Made by a program: the position numbers and the translations under genes
Notes under the pieces: generated by a model
Told to the model about the DNA's origin: nothing
Seen by the model: the letters and a program-made list of their open reading frames with translations, nothing else
Database searches by the model: none
DNA from: Yuukianura sp. NJ FZ-2021
Lineage: Eukaryota
DNA: 64,000 bases
Assembly: GCA_046563655.1 (NCBI GenBank)
Contig: CM102283.1
Coordinates: 8,990,001 to 9,054,000, forward strand
Direction of reading: 5' to 3'
In this document: piece by piece, positions 8,574-13,907 of the stretch
Layout of the letters: every line of letters starts with the position of its first letter
Numbering within the stretch: position 1 is the first letter of the stretch

Positions 8574-11500
8574 ATGAGTTTCAAAAGTGCGTCTTTCAAG
8601 AGGAATAGCTACAAAGTCAATGCCGAGGTACCTCCACAGTCCAAAGTTTTCAAAAAATGATTTTTTTTAGAAAAATGATCATGAATTTTGAAAAAGAGAA
8701 GAATTTTTATGAAGACGTTTGGTTTTTAGAATGAGACAAAGAAAGGTTCGAAGAAAGTGAAGCAGCAGTTGTCTAATCATGGAACAGACAACCTTGGTTT
8801 TATTTCTAACAATGAACCAAAAGTAAGTTTGACCTTTGACCTTTTTAAAAAGTTGGCAAATGACCTTGACCTTGAAATTTTGAAAATTTTAGTTAACAGA
8901 ATTCATCCTTGAAGGCCTGAATGGAGTCAAAAACAAGTCACAAAATTTTAGCAAAGGTTGGGACATAGATGACCACAAAGTTCCGCCTGAAATTTTGTAC
9001 CTCCGCTACGGAACGCATCCAGTCAAGGTAAGTAATTCAGAGGTGAATGACCTCCGTGACCTTCCTTTTTGAAAATTTTTAAATTTGAAAATTTAAATTT
9101 AGAATTTTTTTTTTTCAAAATTTGTAGGGCATGACCGCAGAACAAGTGAAGAAAAACTATGAACTGTACGGACCAAACGTCCTTTTTCCGAAAAAGAAGA
9201 AATCAGAAATCGTTAAATTTTTGTCTAGTCTTTTGCTGGGTTTAAATTTGCTTTTGTGGATCAGTGGTCTCATCAGCATTGTAACTTTTCTAACTCAACT
9301 AGCAACTTATGACCCAGCGGATGGCCTTTCCTATGACAATGTAAGCATGAAAAAACACGTTTGAGCATGCGCAGTGCTAATTTTTGTGTTCTACGCAGCT
9401 GTCTTCCGGCCTAACCCTGTTTGCCGTGGTGCTGGTGGCTGGTGGTTTTTCGTACTACCAAGAATTTAAGAGCAGCAAAATCATCAATTCTTTTAAAAAC
9501 ATGATTCCACAATTTACGGTTGTTTGGCGTGATGGAGTTCGGTCTGAAATTGATGTGAGCAGTGTCGTCGTTGGCGACATCATTGAAGTTCAGTATGGCG
9601 ACAAGTTGCCCGCAGACATGCGCATTCTGGAGAGCCAGGGATTCAAAGTTGACAACTCTGCGTTAACAGGAGAAGCAGAACCGCAAAAACGCAGTGCTTT
9701 TTGTACCGACAAAAATCCTTTAGAAACACAAAATTTGGCATTTTTCTCAACAAATGTGGTCGAAGGTAAAAAAAAAAATTGAACAACTTTTATTTAATAG
9801 AGAGTAATTGCATCTATATGAATATAGAATATAGAATATGGTACGCTCCATATTCTATATTATGCAATTATGAGAAATACCGAAACGTTCTATATTTCGA
9901 TTATGAAATATACTAGAATACATGGAAAACTGGCTGATTGGCAAAATTGAGACGCAACGCGTACTTCCTAGGACAATAGCCGTGGTTTTAAACTTGACGC
10001 TACTTGATGTCGCCATGTAGTTTACGAAAGCAACGTAAAATGGCAATGTCGTCGTCACCTATGTCGGCACAACCCGTGTCATTATATAGTAACTATTCGT
10101 GAAATCGATAATTTACGATTCCCCCCGAATTTTTCCGATTCGAATGATAATTTGGGAGCTGATTCAGCACACATGCCATTTATAATAGTAGAATTTCTGG
10201 AAGACTTTCTGAAAGAATTGGTAATTCCAAAAGTGATAAACTGCGCAGCTTGTGCGCAGTTGCGCAGTTGGTGCGCAGTTGGTGCGCAGTTGGTGCGCAG
10301 TTGCGCAGTTGGTGCGCAGTTGCGCAGTTGGTGCGCAGTTGCGCAGTTGGTGCGCAGTTGCGCAGTTGGTGCGCAGTTGCGCAGCTTGTGCGCAGTTGCG
10401 CAGCTTGTGCGCAGTTGCGCAGTTGGTGCGCAGTTGATCGGGGAGATCAAATGTCAAATGACCAGGGGTTTGTGCAGCACATTTTTCTCTAAAACATTCT
10501 TTATTTGTTTCTTTTTTTTCCAAACTTTTTTTTTGCAGGATCTGCAAAAGGAATTGCTGTTCGTGTTGGAAATGAAACTTTTATGGGGCGACTTGCGTCG
10601 TTGGCTTCGGAAATGTCCGGAACCATGACACCTCTGGCTATAGAAATGACCAGAATCATTTTGATTATGACCACAATGTCACTCACCTTTGGTTGCATAT
10701 TTTTTGGCATCGGATTATCTTTGCACTACACTCTTGTCCAAACACTCTTTTTTGTTGTCGGAATCGTCATTGCCAATGTTCCAGAAAGTTTAAACGTAGC
10801 TCTAACAATTATTTTGGCCCTCACGGCGCGAAAACTGGCCGACAGAAATTGTGTCGTCAAGCATTTGCATGCCGTTGAAACTTTAGGCTCCGCCTCCGTC
10901 ATTTGCTCTGACAAAACTGGAACGATTACACAAAACAAAATGAGTGTAGCACACATGTGGTTCAGTAAGCACCAAATGTTTTGAAAATTTCAAAATTTTG
11001 AGAAAAAAAATGCAAAATTTTGTGGTTTTTAGGTAACAATATTGCGGAAGCGGATACTTCTGAATTTGCAACTATCGGAGTAAAGTATGACACGGACGAT
11101 CCTGGCTTAATGGCTCTTTCGCTTGTCGCCATTTTGTGTAGTCGCGCCAGATTCAAACCAGATCAAGATGAAGTTCCAATTTTGAAGCGCGAAATTGATG
11201 GAGACGCTTCTGAAACAGCGATTTTGCGCTGCATGGAACTGCAATTCGGTGGAGTTGTGGCTTACCGAGACAGTTTTCCAAAAGTGTGCGAAATTCCATT
11301 CAATTCGAGAAACAAATTTCAAGTTTCAATTCATCAGTTGAATGAGCCACACGATTCCAGATTTCTGCTGGTCATGAAGGTTTGAATTTAAAAAAAAACT
11401 AAAATTTTAGTTTTTTTTTCAAAATTTCATTTTTTTTTAAATTTAGGGGGCTCCTGAACGAATACTGGCAATGTGCACAAGCATTTTAGTTGGAAATGAA

Positions 11501-13907
11501 GAACACGAATTGAATGAATTTTGGAAGGATCGAGTAGATGACGCTTACACCGAATTTGGATCTCTGGGAGAAAGAGTCTTAGGTAAATTTTTTGAATGGT
11601 TTTGTGTTTCAAAAATCAAAATTTTGAACTTTTTTGAAATTTAGGATTTTGTGACTGCCGCCTTCCTTCTGACAAGTTCCCACCCGACTATGTGTTTGAC
11701 CCGGACAATCCGGAATTTCTGAAAGTCGGATTTCGGTTTGTCGGTTTGATGTCAATGATTGATCCGCCAAGAGCTGCTGTCCCTCTGGCGGTAGAAAAAT
11801 GCAAAAGTGCTGGCATTCGTGTTGTGATGCTCACTGGTGATCATCCCATTACAGCCAAAGGTAATCTCAAAATTTCAAAATTTTGGAAAAAAAATTATAC
11901 TTTCACTTTTTTATATAGCCATTGCTCGATCGGTTGGAATCATTTCAAAAGGGAACCACACTATTGAAGAAATTGCAGATGAGAAAGGCTGTAGTGTGGA
12001 CGAACTTGAGCCAAGTTTGGCCAAAGCTGCGGTCGTGATTGGTTCAGAACTTTCCTGTATGACATCAGATGAGCTGGATGCTGTTTTAGTGTAAGCACAT
12101 TTTAAAAATTTGTTCAATTTTTTTTCAAAATTTTATATTTTTTCATTTTTGTAGATCCTATGAAGATATAGTGTTTGCCCGAACATCCCCTGAACAAAAG
12201 TACTTGATTGTCGAAGCTTTTCAGCGTCTTGGGCATGTCGTAGCAGTAACTGGTGACGGTGTGAACGACTCACCAGCACTCAAAAAAGCCGACATCGGTA
12301 TCGCTATGGGCATTACCGGTACTTAACTAACCTTATTTTAACTAACTTACATTAACTTTAATTTAAGTTAATGTTGATTAACCTTGTTTTGATCTCTAGG
12401 GACCGATGTTGCCAAAGAAGTCGCTGATTTGGTCCTGATGGACGACAATTTCGCCACAATTTTGAGCGGCGTGGAGCACGGACGCCTAATTTTTGACAAT
12501 TTGAAGAAACTGATTCGGTTTACCTTTGCTGACAACATTTCTGAAATGTACAGTTACTGGGTATTCATTATCCTTGGGGTACCCACACCCATGGGTACCC
12601 TAGCCATGCTCCTCCTCACTTCCGGAATGGACATGGCCCCTGCCATTAGTCTGGCCCATGAAAAGGCAGAGTCTGACATCATGAAGTTAAAGCCAAGGGA
12701 CCCCCACAAGGACAAGTTGGTCACAGGGCAAGTGCTGTCGTTCTCCTACGGTCAAGTGTCGGTCATTGAGACTCTGTCGGGGTTCTTTGCTTACTATGTG
12801 TGTTTCATCTGCAATGGATTCATGCCATGGGATTTGATGGGGATTCAAAGGGCCTGGGACTCCCAGAGTATCAATGACCTTGAGGACTCCTATGGCCAAG
12901 AGTGGACTTACACCAATAGACAAGCCCTTGGACTCCAGGCACAAACGGCCTTCTTTGCTGCACTCGCATTGTGCCAAATAGTCAATGCAGTTTGTGCTAA
13001 AACTAGAAGACTCTCCATTTTCAGTCAAGGTTTCGGGTAAGATGGACAAAAGTTTTAAAAAAAACTATTTTTTTTGAAGTTTTAGGAAATGATTTTTGCA
13101 AAAATTAACAAAACAACTAGTTTTTTTTGAGGTTTCTGGAAACGATTTTAGACAAAATTAAAAAAAAACTAGTTTTTTTGAGGTTTTTAGCAATTGATTT
13201 TTGACAAAAATTTAAGAAAAAGCAAGTTTGTTGAGGCTTTAGTAAACGATTTTTGACAAAAATTTAAGAAAAAGCCAAGGTAAATAGAATACTACTAGGT
13301 AGTGCGAATGGAGAATTTGTTTGGTTGCCATGTGGAAAAAAAAATGACGTCACCCGCTGAAAATACCGGAATTCTGCCAATTATTGGTGGTGTCCTATAG
13401 AAACCCGTAAGACACATCTTGTTTACATAAATGCCAGCGGGTTCCAATTTCACGATTACGGTATTTTTCAGCTGGTGACGTCACAAACAAAAAATTGCGT
13501 TGGTTGCTATGGGCGCCATTTGCAGGGGGCTGAGAAAAAGCAAGTTTTTTGATGTTTTAGGAAATGATTTTTTAACAGATTTTGTATTTTTTGGTTTTAC
13601 AGGAACCATTTTATGAATGCAGCTCTGATATGCTATCCTCTTTGTGCACTTTTTTTTGTGTTTGTTCCTGGAGTCAACACTTCTGTGAACTTTGTTGCAA
13701 TTGGGTAAGAAAAAAGTTAAAATGTTAGTAAATTTTGAGTTTTTTTTTGGAAATGAATTTGGAAATTTTGGAAATTTTATTTGCAGATGGGAAGTGTGGG
13801 TAGCCTGTGTTCCGTTTCCTGTCTTCCTTTTCTGTTATGACGAAATCCGACGGTTAATAGTTAGAACGTTTCCGGGAAGCTGGGTTTCTGAGGAATTTAG
13901 TATTTAG
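8574..13907 (+). CDS. P-type IIC ATPase (Na+/K+-ATPase alpha-like), divergent paralog, multi-exon
   Basis: DDHK..., [132 protein letters not shown] at 8574 inferred from splice continuity; stop at 13907. Confidence 0.95.
10241..10436. repeat. Intronic tandem repeat of TGCGCAGTTGG / TGCGCAGT units
   Basis: Irregular 8- and 11-bp units built on the palindrome TGCGCA, inside the enlarged intron ~9767-10539 of the ATPase gene. Confidence 0.9.
13061..13575. repeat. Degenerate ~55-60 bp intronic tandem repeat interrupted by an inverted-repeat-containing insertion (~13275-13530)
   Basis: Repeated TTTTTTGAGGTTTTAGGAAATGATTTT-like units resume after an insert that contains TGACGTCACCCGCTGAAAATACCG ... 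CGGTATTTTTCAGCTGGTGACGTCA. Confidence 0.6.

What the first reader, a model, noticed from the sequence alone, without database searches (positions are those of the whole stretch)
8574..13907. Na,K-ATPase-like pump with systematically rewired cation-binding sites
The catalytic core looks intact (DKTGT, KGAPE, DPPR, TGDGVND), but the membrane ion sites differ from canonical alpha subunits (pig alpha1 numbering, aligned by eye). M5 YTLTSNIPE reads FTFADNISE (Y771F, S775D). M6 IDLGTD reads LTSGMD (D804T, D808 kept). M8 QWAD reads QIVN (D926N). M9 FEET loses both acidic residues. M4 PEGL reads PESL. The C-terminal KETYY reads EEFSI. Y771, D926, E954 and the terminal YY support the third Na+ site. 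Their joint loss, plus an apparent shift of a carboxylate from M6 to M5, suggests a pump with different ion selectivity or stoichiometry rather than random decay. Divergent P2C paralogs are known in nematodes and insects, so novelty needs checking.
Basis: partly seen in the sequence, partly recalled or inferred. Interest (0 to 1): 0.75.

Follow-up and report, generated by a model that had tools for sequence, protein, structure and literature searches.

The report
Springtail-type sodium pump with rewired ion sites
This is an intact gene for a sodium-pump-like protein from a family so far seen only in springtails, in which the pocket that holds the transported ions has been rebuilt and kept that way by selection, so it probably moves ions differently from the ordinary pump.

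Summary
Window 8574-13907 (+) is an intact 14-exon gene with GT-AG introns throughout. It encodes a 1060-aa P2C ATPase alpha subunit with all catalytic motifs. An ungapped 210-residue alignment to pig alpha1 confirms Y771F, T774A, S775D, P778S, D804T, T807M, W924I, D926N and C930A. N776, E779, D808 and Q923 are kept. It is not decay. Against a metagenome relative (L001), synonymous sites are saturated (pS 0.80) while pN is 0.14. It belongs to a well-supported clade (100/100) whose named members all come from Collembola (Folsomia, Orchesella), plus unnamed metagenome sequences. These species also keep a canonical alpha. A774, D775, a non-acidic 804 and N926 hold in nearly all members. A sister group has S775D and D926N but keeps D804, so the rewiring was probably stepwise. 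Published mutagenesis indicates that Na+ site III is dismantled. I infer an active pump with fewer ion sites, but transport and expression are untested. No paper describing the family was found. Verdict: new variant of a known kind, interest about 0.6.

The parts
8574..8627 (+). Exon 1, from the ATG (18 codons)
   Evidence: Read from the sequence. Donor GT at 8628. There is an in-frame stop upstream. The N-terminus is colinear with Folsomia P0009 (sequence).
8730..8822 (+). Exon 2, Lys-rich N-terminal tail
   Evidence: Acceptor TTTTTAG and donor GTAAGT. Reading frame is continuous.
8893..9027 (+). Exon 3
   Evidence: Splice sites. tblastn of P0020 matches 8944-9027.
9128..9340 (+). Exon 4: M1 and the M1-M2 loop
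   Evidence: Splice sites. tblastn match.
9399..9765 (+). Exon 5: M2 and the A domain, with TGEA (the TGES motif)
   Evidence: Pfam E1-E2_ATPase, E 1.5e-19. Splice sites.
10539..10964 (+). Exon 6: M3, M4 (NVPESL; Glu327 equivalent at 10784-10786, G328S at 10787-10789) and DKTGT (Asp at 10910-10912)
   Evidence: Pfam E1-E2_ATPase, E 3.8e-16. Motif positions. M4 alignment.
11033..11379 (+). Exon 7: N domain
   Evidence: Pfam Cation_ATPase, E 2.5e-15. Splice sites.
11447..11582 (+). Exon 8: KGAPE
   Evidence: The same exon is present in L001.
11645..11860 (+). Exon 9: DPPR and MLTGDHP
   Evidence: 84.5% identical to the L001 exon.
11919..12090 (+). Exon 10
12155..12318 (+). Exon 11: TGDGVND
   Evidence: 94% identical to the L001 exon.
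12400..13036 (+). Exon 12: M5-M8 with the rewired ion sites. F(771) 12519-21, A(774) 12528-30, D(775) 12531-33, N(776) 12534-36, S(778) 12540-42, E(779) 12543-45, T(804) 12618-20, M(807) 12627-29, D(808) 12630-32, Q(923) 12975-77, I(924) 12978-80, N(926) 12984-86. Also holds the SYGQ loop.
   Evidence: Ungapped alignment to pig alpha1 3wgu_A 732-941, E 1.1e-70. Pfam Cation_ATPase_C. I derived the codon coordinates.
13603..13704 (+). Exon 13: M9. ICYP replaces the arthropod VFET; Tyr at the Glu954 position is 13634-13636.
   Evidence: MAFFT block M9. Splice sites.
13787..13907 (+). Exon 14: M10 and the C-terminus ...SEEFSI, then stop TAG at 13905-13907
13975..13980 (+). AATAAA, a possible polyadenylation signal 68 nt after the stop
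   Evidence: Read directly from the sequence. Its function is inferred only.

Best explanation
The gene encodes a functional P2C (Na,K/H,K-type) ATPase alpha subunit that is under purifying selection. It belongs to a divergent paralog family whose named members all come from springtails, and these species also keep a canonical alpha subunit. SHOWN: the catalytic machinery (A, N and P domains) and the SYGQ loop are intact. (That SYGQ binds the beta subunit is recalled.) Five classic pocket ligands are kept: Glu327, Asn776, Glu779, Asp808 and Gln923. INFERRED: the Na+-exclusive site III is dismantled. The changes are D926N, T774A, W924I, loss of the M9 Glu954, loss of the C-terminal Tyr-Tyr, P778S and, in this gene, Y771F. 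Ser775 is the ligand shared by sites I and III, and here it is an Asp. Asp804 is the carboxylate shared by sites I and II, and here it is a Thr (Val or Met in relatives). The pocket therefore holds four carboxylates (E327, D775, E779, D808) instead of five or six, and no tethered Lys or Arg. I infer an ATP-driven cation exchanger that binds at most two ions per half-cycle. Asp775 would supply the site-I carboxylate that Asp804 no longer gives. Stoichiometry would be reduced, possibly electroneutral, and Na+ versus H+ selectivity on the cytoplasmic side would be relaxed. A role in the unusual osmoregulation of springtails (ion uptake from dilute soil water, ventral tube) is speculation.
For: Intact gene: 14 exons, 1060 codons, no internal stop. 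All motifs present and Pfam domains found. Residue mapping rests on an ungapped alignment to pig alpha1.

Selection: against L001, over 530 aligned codons, aa identity is 78.7%, pS 0.803 (saturated) and pN 0.136. Against L002, over 300 codons, pS is 0.795 and pN 0.196.

Family: the careful ML tree of 29 rows puts WIN with Folsomia P0009 at 100/99, the divergent clade of 7 rows at 100/100, and that clade plus its sister pair at 100/98. Of 368 stored proteins, 14 have Asp at 775. All 14 are either named as Collembola or are unnamed metagenome/Logan sequences, and 11 of the 14 lack Asp804. Three further metagenome loci show Asp775, Asn926 and Thr or Met at 804.

Conservation: across 5 divergent members (42-63% pairwise identity, 275 of 949 columns invariant), E327, A774, D775, N776, D808, Q923 and N926 are invariant, and position 804 is T, T, V, V, V. 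Canonical alphas exist in Folsomia (P0309) and Orchesella dallaii (P0281).

Literature, passages read (PMC9463140): Trp924, Cys930, Ser775 and Pro778 are what turn a non-gastric H,K pump into a Na,K pump. Neutralising Asp926 (human alpha3 D923N) lowers Na+ affinity more than 100-fold without changing K+ affinity. Glu954 acts through Trp924. Passages read (PMC10812997): S777G/T/N mutants remain transport-active, so an Asp-sized (Asn-like) side chain fits at 775. Pumps without site III can still cycle (2Na:2K with an M8 Arg; 2Na:1K in Artemia).
Against: No functional or expression data. No RNA run was listed and no genome is held. Asp804 is regarded as essential for K+ and Na+ binding at sites I and II in canonical pumps (established knowledge; its role is described in the passages), so transport may be lost rather than altered. 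No Ser775-to-Asp mutant has been characterised in the papers I read: the terms S777D and S777E give 0 hits in PMC10812997. The clade evolves fast; branch lengths are 0.5-2.3 against about 0.05 for canonical alphas. Several pocket positions vary within it: 771, 772, 778, 779 (Gln in one subfamily), 807 and 924 (Trp kept in L001 and L002). I did no structural modelling of the pocket, so the idea that Asp775 substitutes for Asp804 is geometric reasoning only.
Confidence: 0.6

Rival explanations
1. Transport-dead 'pseudo-pump'. The protein still folds, may still bind ATP and a beta subunit, and serves as a scaffold, signalling partner or regulator. It no longer occludes and moves cations, because Asp804 and site III are gone.
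For: Asp804 is a shared ligand of sites I and II (passages; established knowledge). Here it is Thr, and in relatives Val or Met, which cannot coordinate a cation through a carboxylate. Branches in the clade are long. Other animal alpha-like paralogs among the stored representatives have even lost DKTGT, namely the drosophilid P0190 and the nematomorph P0142. This shows that non-pumping derivatives do evolve.
Against: In this gene every catalytic motif is intact: DKTGT, TGE, KGAPE, DPPR, TGDGVND. The 7 full-length clade members keep DKTGT and TGE. The remaining pocket ligands E327, N776, D808 and Q923, and the new D775 and N926, are invariant in a clade where only 29% of columns are invariant. 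That is not expected if the pocket had no function. pN is far below pS.
Confidence: 0.15
2. A convergent H+/K+-type electroneutral pump. With site III disabled as in H,K-ATPases, it exports H+ rather than Na+ in exchange for K+.
For: The window has Ile at 924, as both H,K-ATPases do. Asp926 is neutralised; in H,K-ATPases the same is achieved by a salt bridge. [quoted passage not shown]
Against: The hallmark Lys at the 775 position is absent; the residue is the opposite charge, Asp. There is no Arg at 930 (Ala here). H,K pumps keep an acidic residue at 804 (Glu in the one ATP4A sequence aligned). PMC9463140 proposes that strict H+ selectivity needs site III destroyed and also a tethered cation in site I. 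The tree does not join the clade with ATP4A.
Confidence: 0.15
3. An ordinary 3Na+/2K+ pump isoform whose substitutions are functionally neutral.
For: Overall 53% identity to the canonical Folsomia alpha. The best solved-structure matches are Na,K-ATPase alphas.
Against: The canonical signature YTTSNPEDTDQWDC is by far the commonest state: it is carried by 90 of the 99 proteins added after the first scan. The window differs from it at 9 of these 14 positions. These include D804 and D926, whose single mutations are severe (passages).
Confidence: 0.04
4. A decaying or recently inactivated gene copy under relaxed selection.
For: Fast-evolving clade. Some reader-listed changes (Y771F, G328S, T807M) are lineage-specific. 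Expression is unverified.
Against: No stop, frameshift or broken splice site in 14 exons. pN 0.136 against saturated pS 0.803. The exon structure is shared with L001.
Confidence: 0.03

Closest known systems
Divergent 'Na/K-ATPase alpha' paralogs of springtails: Folsomia candida P0009; Orchesella cincta P0015, P0020 ('alpha-B') and P0135; O. dallaii P0014 and P0271. Database entries with automatic names only.
   Same: Same clade (100/100). Same signature: A774 (Thr in P0271), D775, N776, non-acidic 804, D808, Q923, N926. Loss of the M9 FET motif and of the terminal YY. 43-57% identity over the full length.
   Different: The window protein and metagenome L001 also carry Y771F and T807M. The window alone has G328S, C930A and W924I; relatives have F, I, V or W at 924. 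One Orchesella subfamily (P0135, P0271) also has E779Q. No member is closer than 58% (named proteins) or about 79% (L001, partial).
Sister springtail group 'inter': Folsomia P0033 and O. dallaii P0285
   Same: S775D, D926N and no Pro at 778. Sister to the divergent clade at 100/98.
   Different: They keep D804, T774, W924, a canonical M4, M9 FET and the C-terminal YY. They look like an intermediate stage of the rewiring.
Canonical arthropod Na,K-ATPase alpha (ATPalpha), for example Folsomia P0309
   Same: P2C fold, all catalytic motifs, the SYGQ loop, and E327, N776, E779, D808, Q923. 53% identity.
   Different: Differs at Y771, T774, S775, P778, D804, T807, W924, D926, C930, the M9 Glu and the terminal YY.
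Gastric and non-gastric H,K-ATPase alpha (ATP4A, ATP12A)
   Same: Site III not usable. Ile at 924. No Pro at 778 (as in ATP12A). The Asp926 charge is cancelled.
   Different: H,K pumps carry Lys at 775 and Arg at 930, and keep an acidic residue at 804. Here these are Asp, Ala and Thr. The two are not sister in the tree.
Artemia alpha2KK (PDB 8k1l; PMC10756188, abstract read)
   Same: A natural arthropod alpha paralog with altered ion-site residues that coexists with canonical alphas. It has been shown to run at reduced stoichiometry (2Na+:1K+).
   Different: The Artemia pump uses two Lys at the Asn324 and Asn776 positions. The window keeps both Asn and changes carboxylates instead.
Other animal alpha-like paralogs: drosophilid P0190, spider P0143/P0370, nematomorph P0142. 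C. elegans CATP-1 to CATP-4 are recalled, with only a search listing seen.
   Same: Lineage-specific, fast-evolving P2C paralogs with altered pocket residues.
   Different: Different signatures: S775 kept or Ala, and D804 kept. Two have lost DKTGT. They do not join the springtail clade in the quick tree.

Membership tests
P-type ATPase, subfamily P2C (Na,K/H,K alpha) | Phosphorylation motif DKTGT plus TGE(S), KGAPE, DPPR and TGDGVND | tested here: met
   Positions 412, 255, 545, 630 and 752 of the spliced protein. TGES reads TGEA.
P-type ATPase, subfamily P2C (Na,K/H,K alpha) | Domain architecture E1-E2_ATPase, Cation_ATPase (N domain) and Cation_ATPase_C | tested here: met
   Pfam hits on the four large exons, E 1.5e-19 to 3.9e-21. 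The N-terminal domain PF00690 was not tested on the short exons.
P-type ATPase, subfamily P2C (Na,K/H,K alpha) | Closer to Na,K/H,K alphas than to SERCA, PMCA or SPCA | tested here: met
   Exon 12 against PDB: Na,K alphas about E 1e-71, H,K alphas 1e-60 to 1e-65, Ca pumps 1e-16 to 1e-19.
P-type ATPase, subfamily P2C (Na,K/H,K alpha) | SYGQ motif in the M7-M8 loop (its beta-subunit-binding role is recalled) | tested here: met
   DSYGQEW is present at 938. Actual beta binding was not tested.
Canonical Na,K-ATPase (3Na+/2K+) | Site I/II ligands Ser775, Asn776, Glu779, Asp804, Asp808 and Glu327 | tested here: not met
   S775D and D804T. The other four are kept.
Canonical Na,K-ATPase (3Na+/2K+) | Site III network: Tyr771, Thr774, Gln923, Trp924, Asp926, Glu954 and the C-terminal YY | tested here: not met
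   These read F, A, Q, I, N, Y and SI. Only Gln923 is kept.
H,K-ATPase | Lys at the Ser775 position, Arg at the Cys930 position, acidic residue at 804 | tested here: not met
   These read Asp, Ala and Thr. The features themselves are taken from PMC9463140 and the ATP4A row.
Artemia alpha2KK-type reduced-stoichiometry pump | Lys at the Asn324 (M4) and Asn776 (M5) positions | tested here: not met
   Both are Asn: ANVPE in M4 and DN in M5. The feature is taken from the abstract read.
Springtail divergent alpha clade (defined here) | A774 (Thr in P0271, Gly in L037), D775, non-acidic 804 and N926, with E327, N776, D808 and Q923 kept; monophyly with Folsomia and Orchesella members | tested here: met
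   Signature. Clade support 100/100.
Springtail divergent alpha clade (defined here) | The source organism is a springtail | tested here: inconclusive
   The nearest named relatives of the pump are all Collembola. However, a neighbouring Rop/Sec1 exon is 57-64% identical to most of the listed arthropods, springtails included (Allacma 60%, Folsomia 59%). No genome is held.

The most novel reading that the evidence does not exclude
Springtails evolved and expanded a new functional class of P2C pump. The ion-pocket carboxylates were moved rather than lost: first Asp926 (M8) was traded for Asp775 (M5), then Asp804 (M6) was dropped. The result would be a two-site (or one-site) pump with new stoichiometry and possibly new cation selectivity, such as electroneutral Na+ or H+/K+ exchange, or another cation. 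It might be used for ion uptake from very dilute soil water. If so, Asp804, long treated as indispensable, can be replaced by a carboxylate on another helix.
Probability: 0.35. Interest if true: 0.8.

Novelty: new variant of a known kind. Interest (0 to 1): 0.6.

Why it matters
Which residues set ion number and selectivity in Na,K- and H,K-ATPases is an active question. It has been addressed mainly by engineered mutants (PMC9463140, PMC10812997) and by one natural case, Artemia alpha2KK (PMC10756188). This family is a second natural experiment, and a more radical one. Selection has maintained a pocket without Asp804 and Asp926 but with a new Asp at the Ser775 position. A surviving 'intermediate' subfamily suggests an order of steps. 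That makes specific hypotheses directly testable with existing oocyte and cryo-EM methods: whether a carboxylate can be relocated between helices, and what pump results when site III is removed without a tethered cation. It may also bear on how springtails osmoregulate.

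Tried and rejected
- Expression: no RNA holder was listed for window:8500-14000.
- Whole genome: none is held for this window. I could not ask whether the same organism also has a canonical alpha or other paralogs. tblastn of P0020 and P0033 finds only this one locus in the window.
- Earlier findings of this scan: nothing by place or by sequence.
- Organism identification through the neighbouring Rop/Sec1 exon: uninformative. 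It is 57-64% identical to most of the listed arthropods.
- Classical dN/dS: not computable, because pS exceeds the Jukes-Cantor limit (0.80). I report pN against the saturated pS instead.
- Origin of the clade: the free tree leaves its position among Metazoa unresolved. An AU test does not reject a single springtail clade containing canonical plus divergent copies (p 0.119). So an ancient paralog and a springtail-specific duplication with acceleration both remain open.
- The 50%-identity representative library mostly returned protist and other divergent P2C sequences. It was useful as outgroups and for the signature scan, but it added only one named clade member (P0135) and four short unnamed sequences with Asp at 775: P0149, P0152, P0199 and P0247.
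- Literature: searches gave no paper on these springtail paralogs or on an Asp at the Ser775 position. PMC4468109 mentions ion-transport genes under positive selection in Collembola but names Ca2+-ATPases and a Na-Cl cotransporter, not this family (passages). Its S5 Table could not be seen because supplements are closed. PMC12295829 (Folsomia drought proteome) has no ATPase mention in the main text. PMC10654040 does not discuss such paralogs in the passages that held my search terms.
- Structure prediction and complex prediction were not run. The spliced protein cannot be handed to those tools, and they return no coordinates for measuring pocket geometry.

Full report
1. WHAT IS IN THE SEQUENCE

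Stop-to-stop frames on the + strand between 8.5 and 13.9 kb carry recognisable P-type ATPase pieces separated by short AT-rich gaps.

From the DNA I built a 14-exon model: 8574-8627, 8730-8822, 8893-9027, 9128-9340, 9399-9765, 10539-10964, 11033-11379, 11447-11582, 11645-11860, 11919-12090, 12155-12318, 12400-13036, 13603-13704 and 13787-13907. My first version had exon 1 two bases off, which gave an internal stop. The corrected model gives a 3183-nt CDS of 1060 codons with no internal stop. All 13 introns are GT...AG. Eleven are 58-100 nt; the other two are 773 and 566 nt.

An AATAAA lies 68 nt after the stop. tblastn with two homologues finds no second copy in the window.

All catalytic motifs are present. 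Pfam recognises E1-E2_ATPase, Cation_ATPase and Cation_ATPase_C on the four large exons.

2. CHECKING THE SUBSTITUTIONS

Exon 12 (M5-M8, 211 aa) aligns without a single gap to solved Na,K-ATPase alphas. For example, residues 1-210 match residues 732-941 of pig alpha1 3wgu_A, E 1.1e-70.

This fixes the pig numbering. The changes are Y771F, T774A, S775D, P778S, D804T, T807M, W924I, D926N and C930A. T772, N776, E779, D808 and Q923 are unchanged.

A MAFFT alignment with 44 other alphas shows M4 NVPEGL to NVPESL, with Glu327 and Asn324 kept. It shows M9 (arthropod VFET, vertebrate LEET) to ICYP. The C-terminus ETYY becomes EFSI. The SYGQ loop is intact.

3. RELATIVES

A word-indexed search of 5.8 billion proteins with exon 12 returned thousands of canonical alphas at about 53-55% identity. 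A handful scored higher, at 59-66%. Every named one of these comes from springtails: Folsomia candida P0009, and Orchesella cincta and O. dallaii P0014, P0015 and P0020. There is also an unnamed metagenome protein, P0017.

An exhaustive HMMER scan of 1.84 billion representatives and a profile search added O. cincta P0135 and O. dallaii P0271. They also added four short unnamed sequences with Asp at 775.

I scanned every stored protein for the residues at the pocket positions. Of 368 proteins, 14 have Asp at 775. All 14 are either named as Collembola or unnamed metagenome/Logan sequences, and 11 of the 14 have no Asp at 804. The canonical state YTTSNPEDTDQWDC dominates the rest.

A metagenome scan gave three further loci. 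L001 is 82% identical on exon 12, has the same exon layout, and covers residues 524-1060. L002 is 78% identical and L037 is 56%. All three have Asp775 and Asn926. At 804 they have Thr (L001, L002) or Met (L037).

Folsomia and O. dallaii also have ordinary canonical alphas (P0309, P0281), so the divergent genes are extra copies.

4. PHYLOGENY

A careful IQ-TREE run (29 rows, 1011 columns, three protist P2C pumps as outgroup) gave the following:
- the window protein with Folsomia P0009, support 100/99;
- a divergent clade of 7 rows, 100/100;
- that clade sister to a pair I call 'inter' (Folsomia P0033, O. dallaii P0285), 100/98.

The position of this 9-row group among animal pumps is unresolved. 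An AU test does not reject a tree in which all 11 springtail rows, canonical ones included, form one clade (p 0.119). So the age of the duplication is open.

In a quick tree, fast-evolving alpha-like paralogs of a drosophilid, a spider and a nematomorph (named) do not join the springtail group. Their placement is unreliable because their branches are very long.

For the trees I chose 28 and then 31 of the stored proteins. I left out fused or visibly mis-modelled entries (for example P0005 and P0359) and most of the near-identical canonical insect sequences.

5. SELECTION

Against L001, over 530 aligned codons, amino-acid identity is 78.7%. The proportion of synonymous differences is 0.803, beyond saturation, while the non-synonymous proportion is 0.136. 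Against L002, over 300 codons, the values are 0.795 and 0.196. A formal dN/dS cannot be computed, but it must be well below 0.2. Decay or relaxed selection is therefore excluded since these lineages split.

I then compared five divergent proteins, using one of each close Orchesella ortholog pair (42-63% pairwise identity). Only 275 of 949 ungapped columns are invariant. Yet E327, A774, D775, N776, D808, Q923 and N926 are invariant, and 804 is always non-acidic (T, T, V, V, V).

Not conserved are Y771F (window and L001 only), G328S, T807M, C930A and the residue at 924, which is I, F or V, with W kept in L001 and L002. Position 779 is Gln in one Orchesella subfamily.

6. ORDER OF EVENTS

The 'inter' proteins carry S775D, D926N, C930S and no Pro at 778. 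They keep T774, D804, W924, a canonical M4, M9 FET and the terminal YY.

If they reflect the ancestral stage, Asp775 appeared together with the loss of the M8 carboxylate. Ser775 is the ligand shared by Na+ sites I and III (abstract of PMC10812997). The loss of Asp804 and of the rest of the site III network came later. 'M8 to M5, then loss of M6' fits the tree better. This is inference.

7. MECHANISM

Shown: intact catalytic core, retained SYGQ loop, a conserved and selected pocket of new composition.

Inferred from published work:
[quoted passage not shown] It also shows that Glu954 acts through Trp924, that Tyr771 hydrogen-bonds Gln923, and that neutralising Asp926 lowers Na+ affinity more than 100-fold without touching K+ affinity. 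The window protein differs at every one of these positions. Na+ site III is almost certainly absent.
(b) PMC10812997 (passages) finds S777G/T/N mutants transport-active and bulkier ones inactive. An Asp, which is the same size as Asn, should therefore fit. No Asp mutant was reported there.
(c) Pumps without site III still cycle: 2Na:2K with an M8 Arg, and 2Na:1K in Artemia alpha2KK.

The pocket keeps four carboxylates (E327, D775, E779, D808) and gains no Lys or Arg. None of the 35 positions that are invariant in the clade but differ from the canonical alpha is basic.

I therefore propose an active exchanger with at most two sites. Asp775 would replace Asp804 in site I. Site II would be weakened: it would rely on M4 carbonyls, E327 and E779, plus the Thr804 hydroxyl here. 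Na+/H+ discrimination would be relaxed.

Because Asp804 is so central in canonical pumps, a non-transporting protein remains a serious rival (0.15).

8. COMPARISON AND NOVELTY

It is a member of P2C, but it fails the ion-site definition of a canonical Na,K-ATPase. It also fails the definition of an H,K-ATPase (no Lys775, no Arg930, no acidic residue at 804) and of the Artemia KK type.

The family members exist in public databases only under automatic 'sodium/potassium-transporting ATPase subunit alpha' names. Seven literature searches and the passages I read revealed no description of them. The library lacks most subscription-journal papers, and supplements were closed, so an earlier mention cannot be excluded.

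I rate it a new variant of a known kind. The sequence evidence for a selected, rewired pocket is solid. The functional consequence is untested.

9. LIMITS

- The source organism is not established.
- Expression is not established.
- No pocket geometry was modelled.
- Only three named springtail species are represented.

Noticed in passing
window 26677-29830: A 3.15-kb satellite of a 12-bp unit (GTAAATGCATAT; reported as period 24 x 131 copies, 96% matches). It leaves five of the six reading frames open for more than 1000 codons and coincides with the GC dip and strong GC skew at 26-30 kb.
   Followed up: no
window 10242-10436 and 13045-13273: The two long introns of the pump gene hold tandem repeats. 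Intron 5 has a 19-bp unit x 10 (TGCGCAGTTGGTGCGCAGT). Intron 12 has a 52-bp unit x 4.4. The L001 relative has a much shorter intron at the second position.
   Followed up: partly
window 21386-21554 and 21703-21870: Two arrays of 17/29/65-bp repeats whose units are reverse complements of each other (AATTGGTTCAA... versus TTGAACCAATT...), about 150 bp apart. This could be a foldback or MITE-like inverted structure.
   Followed up: no
window 5779-6525 (+) and 39080-39670 (+): ORF pieces with ABC transporter ATP-binding domains (Pfam ABC_tran, E 1.2e-25 and 1.4e-10). The first lies about 2 kb upstream of the pump gene.
   Followed up: no
window 24659-25285 (-): Exon of a Sec1/Rop (syntaxin-binding) homologue (Pfam Sec1, E 1.2e-39). 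It is 57-64% identical to ROP of most of the listed arthropods, springtails included, so it does not identify the source taxon.
   Followed up: partly
P0033 (Folsomia candida), P0285 (Orchesella dallaii): An 'intermediate' alpha subfamily with S775D, D926N, C930S and no Pro778, but with D804, W924, M9 FET and the terminal YY intact. It is sister to the divergent clade. It is a natural test of what Asp775 plus Asn926 do on an otherwise canonical pocket.
   Followed up: partly
P0007 (Darwinula stevensoni, ostracod): An alpha subunit with Lys at the Ser775 position (the H,K-ATPase hallmark) plus Asn at 926 and Met at the Asn324 position (AMVPEGL), in a crustacean. This may be an independent H,K-like or reduced-stoichiometry pump.
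   Followed up: no
L037 3001-3842 (metagenome contig; same contig-name prefix as L001 and L002): A further divergent paralog with Gly774, Asp775, Met804 and Asn926. It has an extra intron inside the region that is a single exon 12 in the window (in-frame stops after SYGQEW).
   Followed up: no
P0190 (Scaptodrosophila), P0142 (Gordionus), P0144 (unnamed): Alpha-like proteins whose DKTGT motif is degenerate (SDMVGT, DDSSLF, AHKTSF). These are likely non-catalytic pump derivatives in other animal lineages.
   Followed up: no
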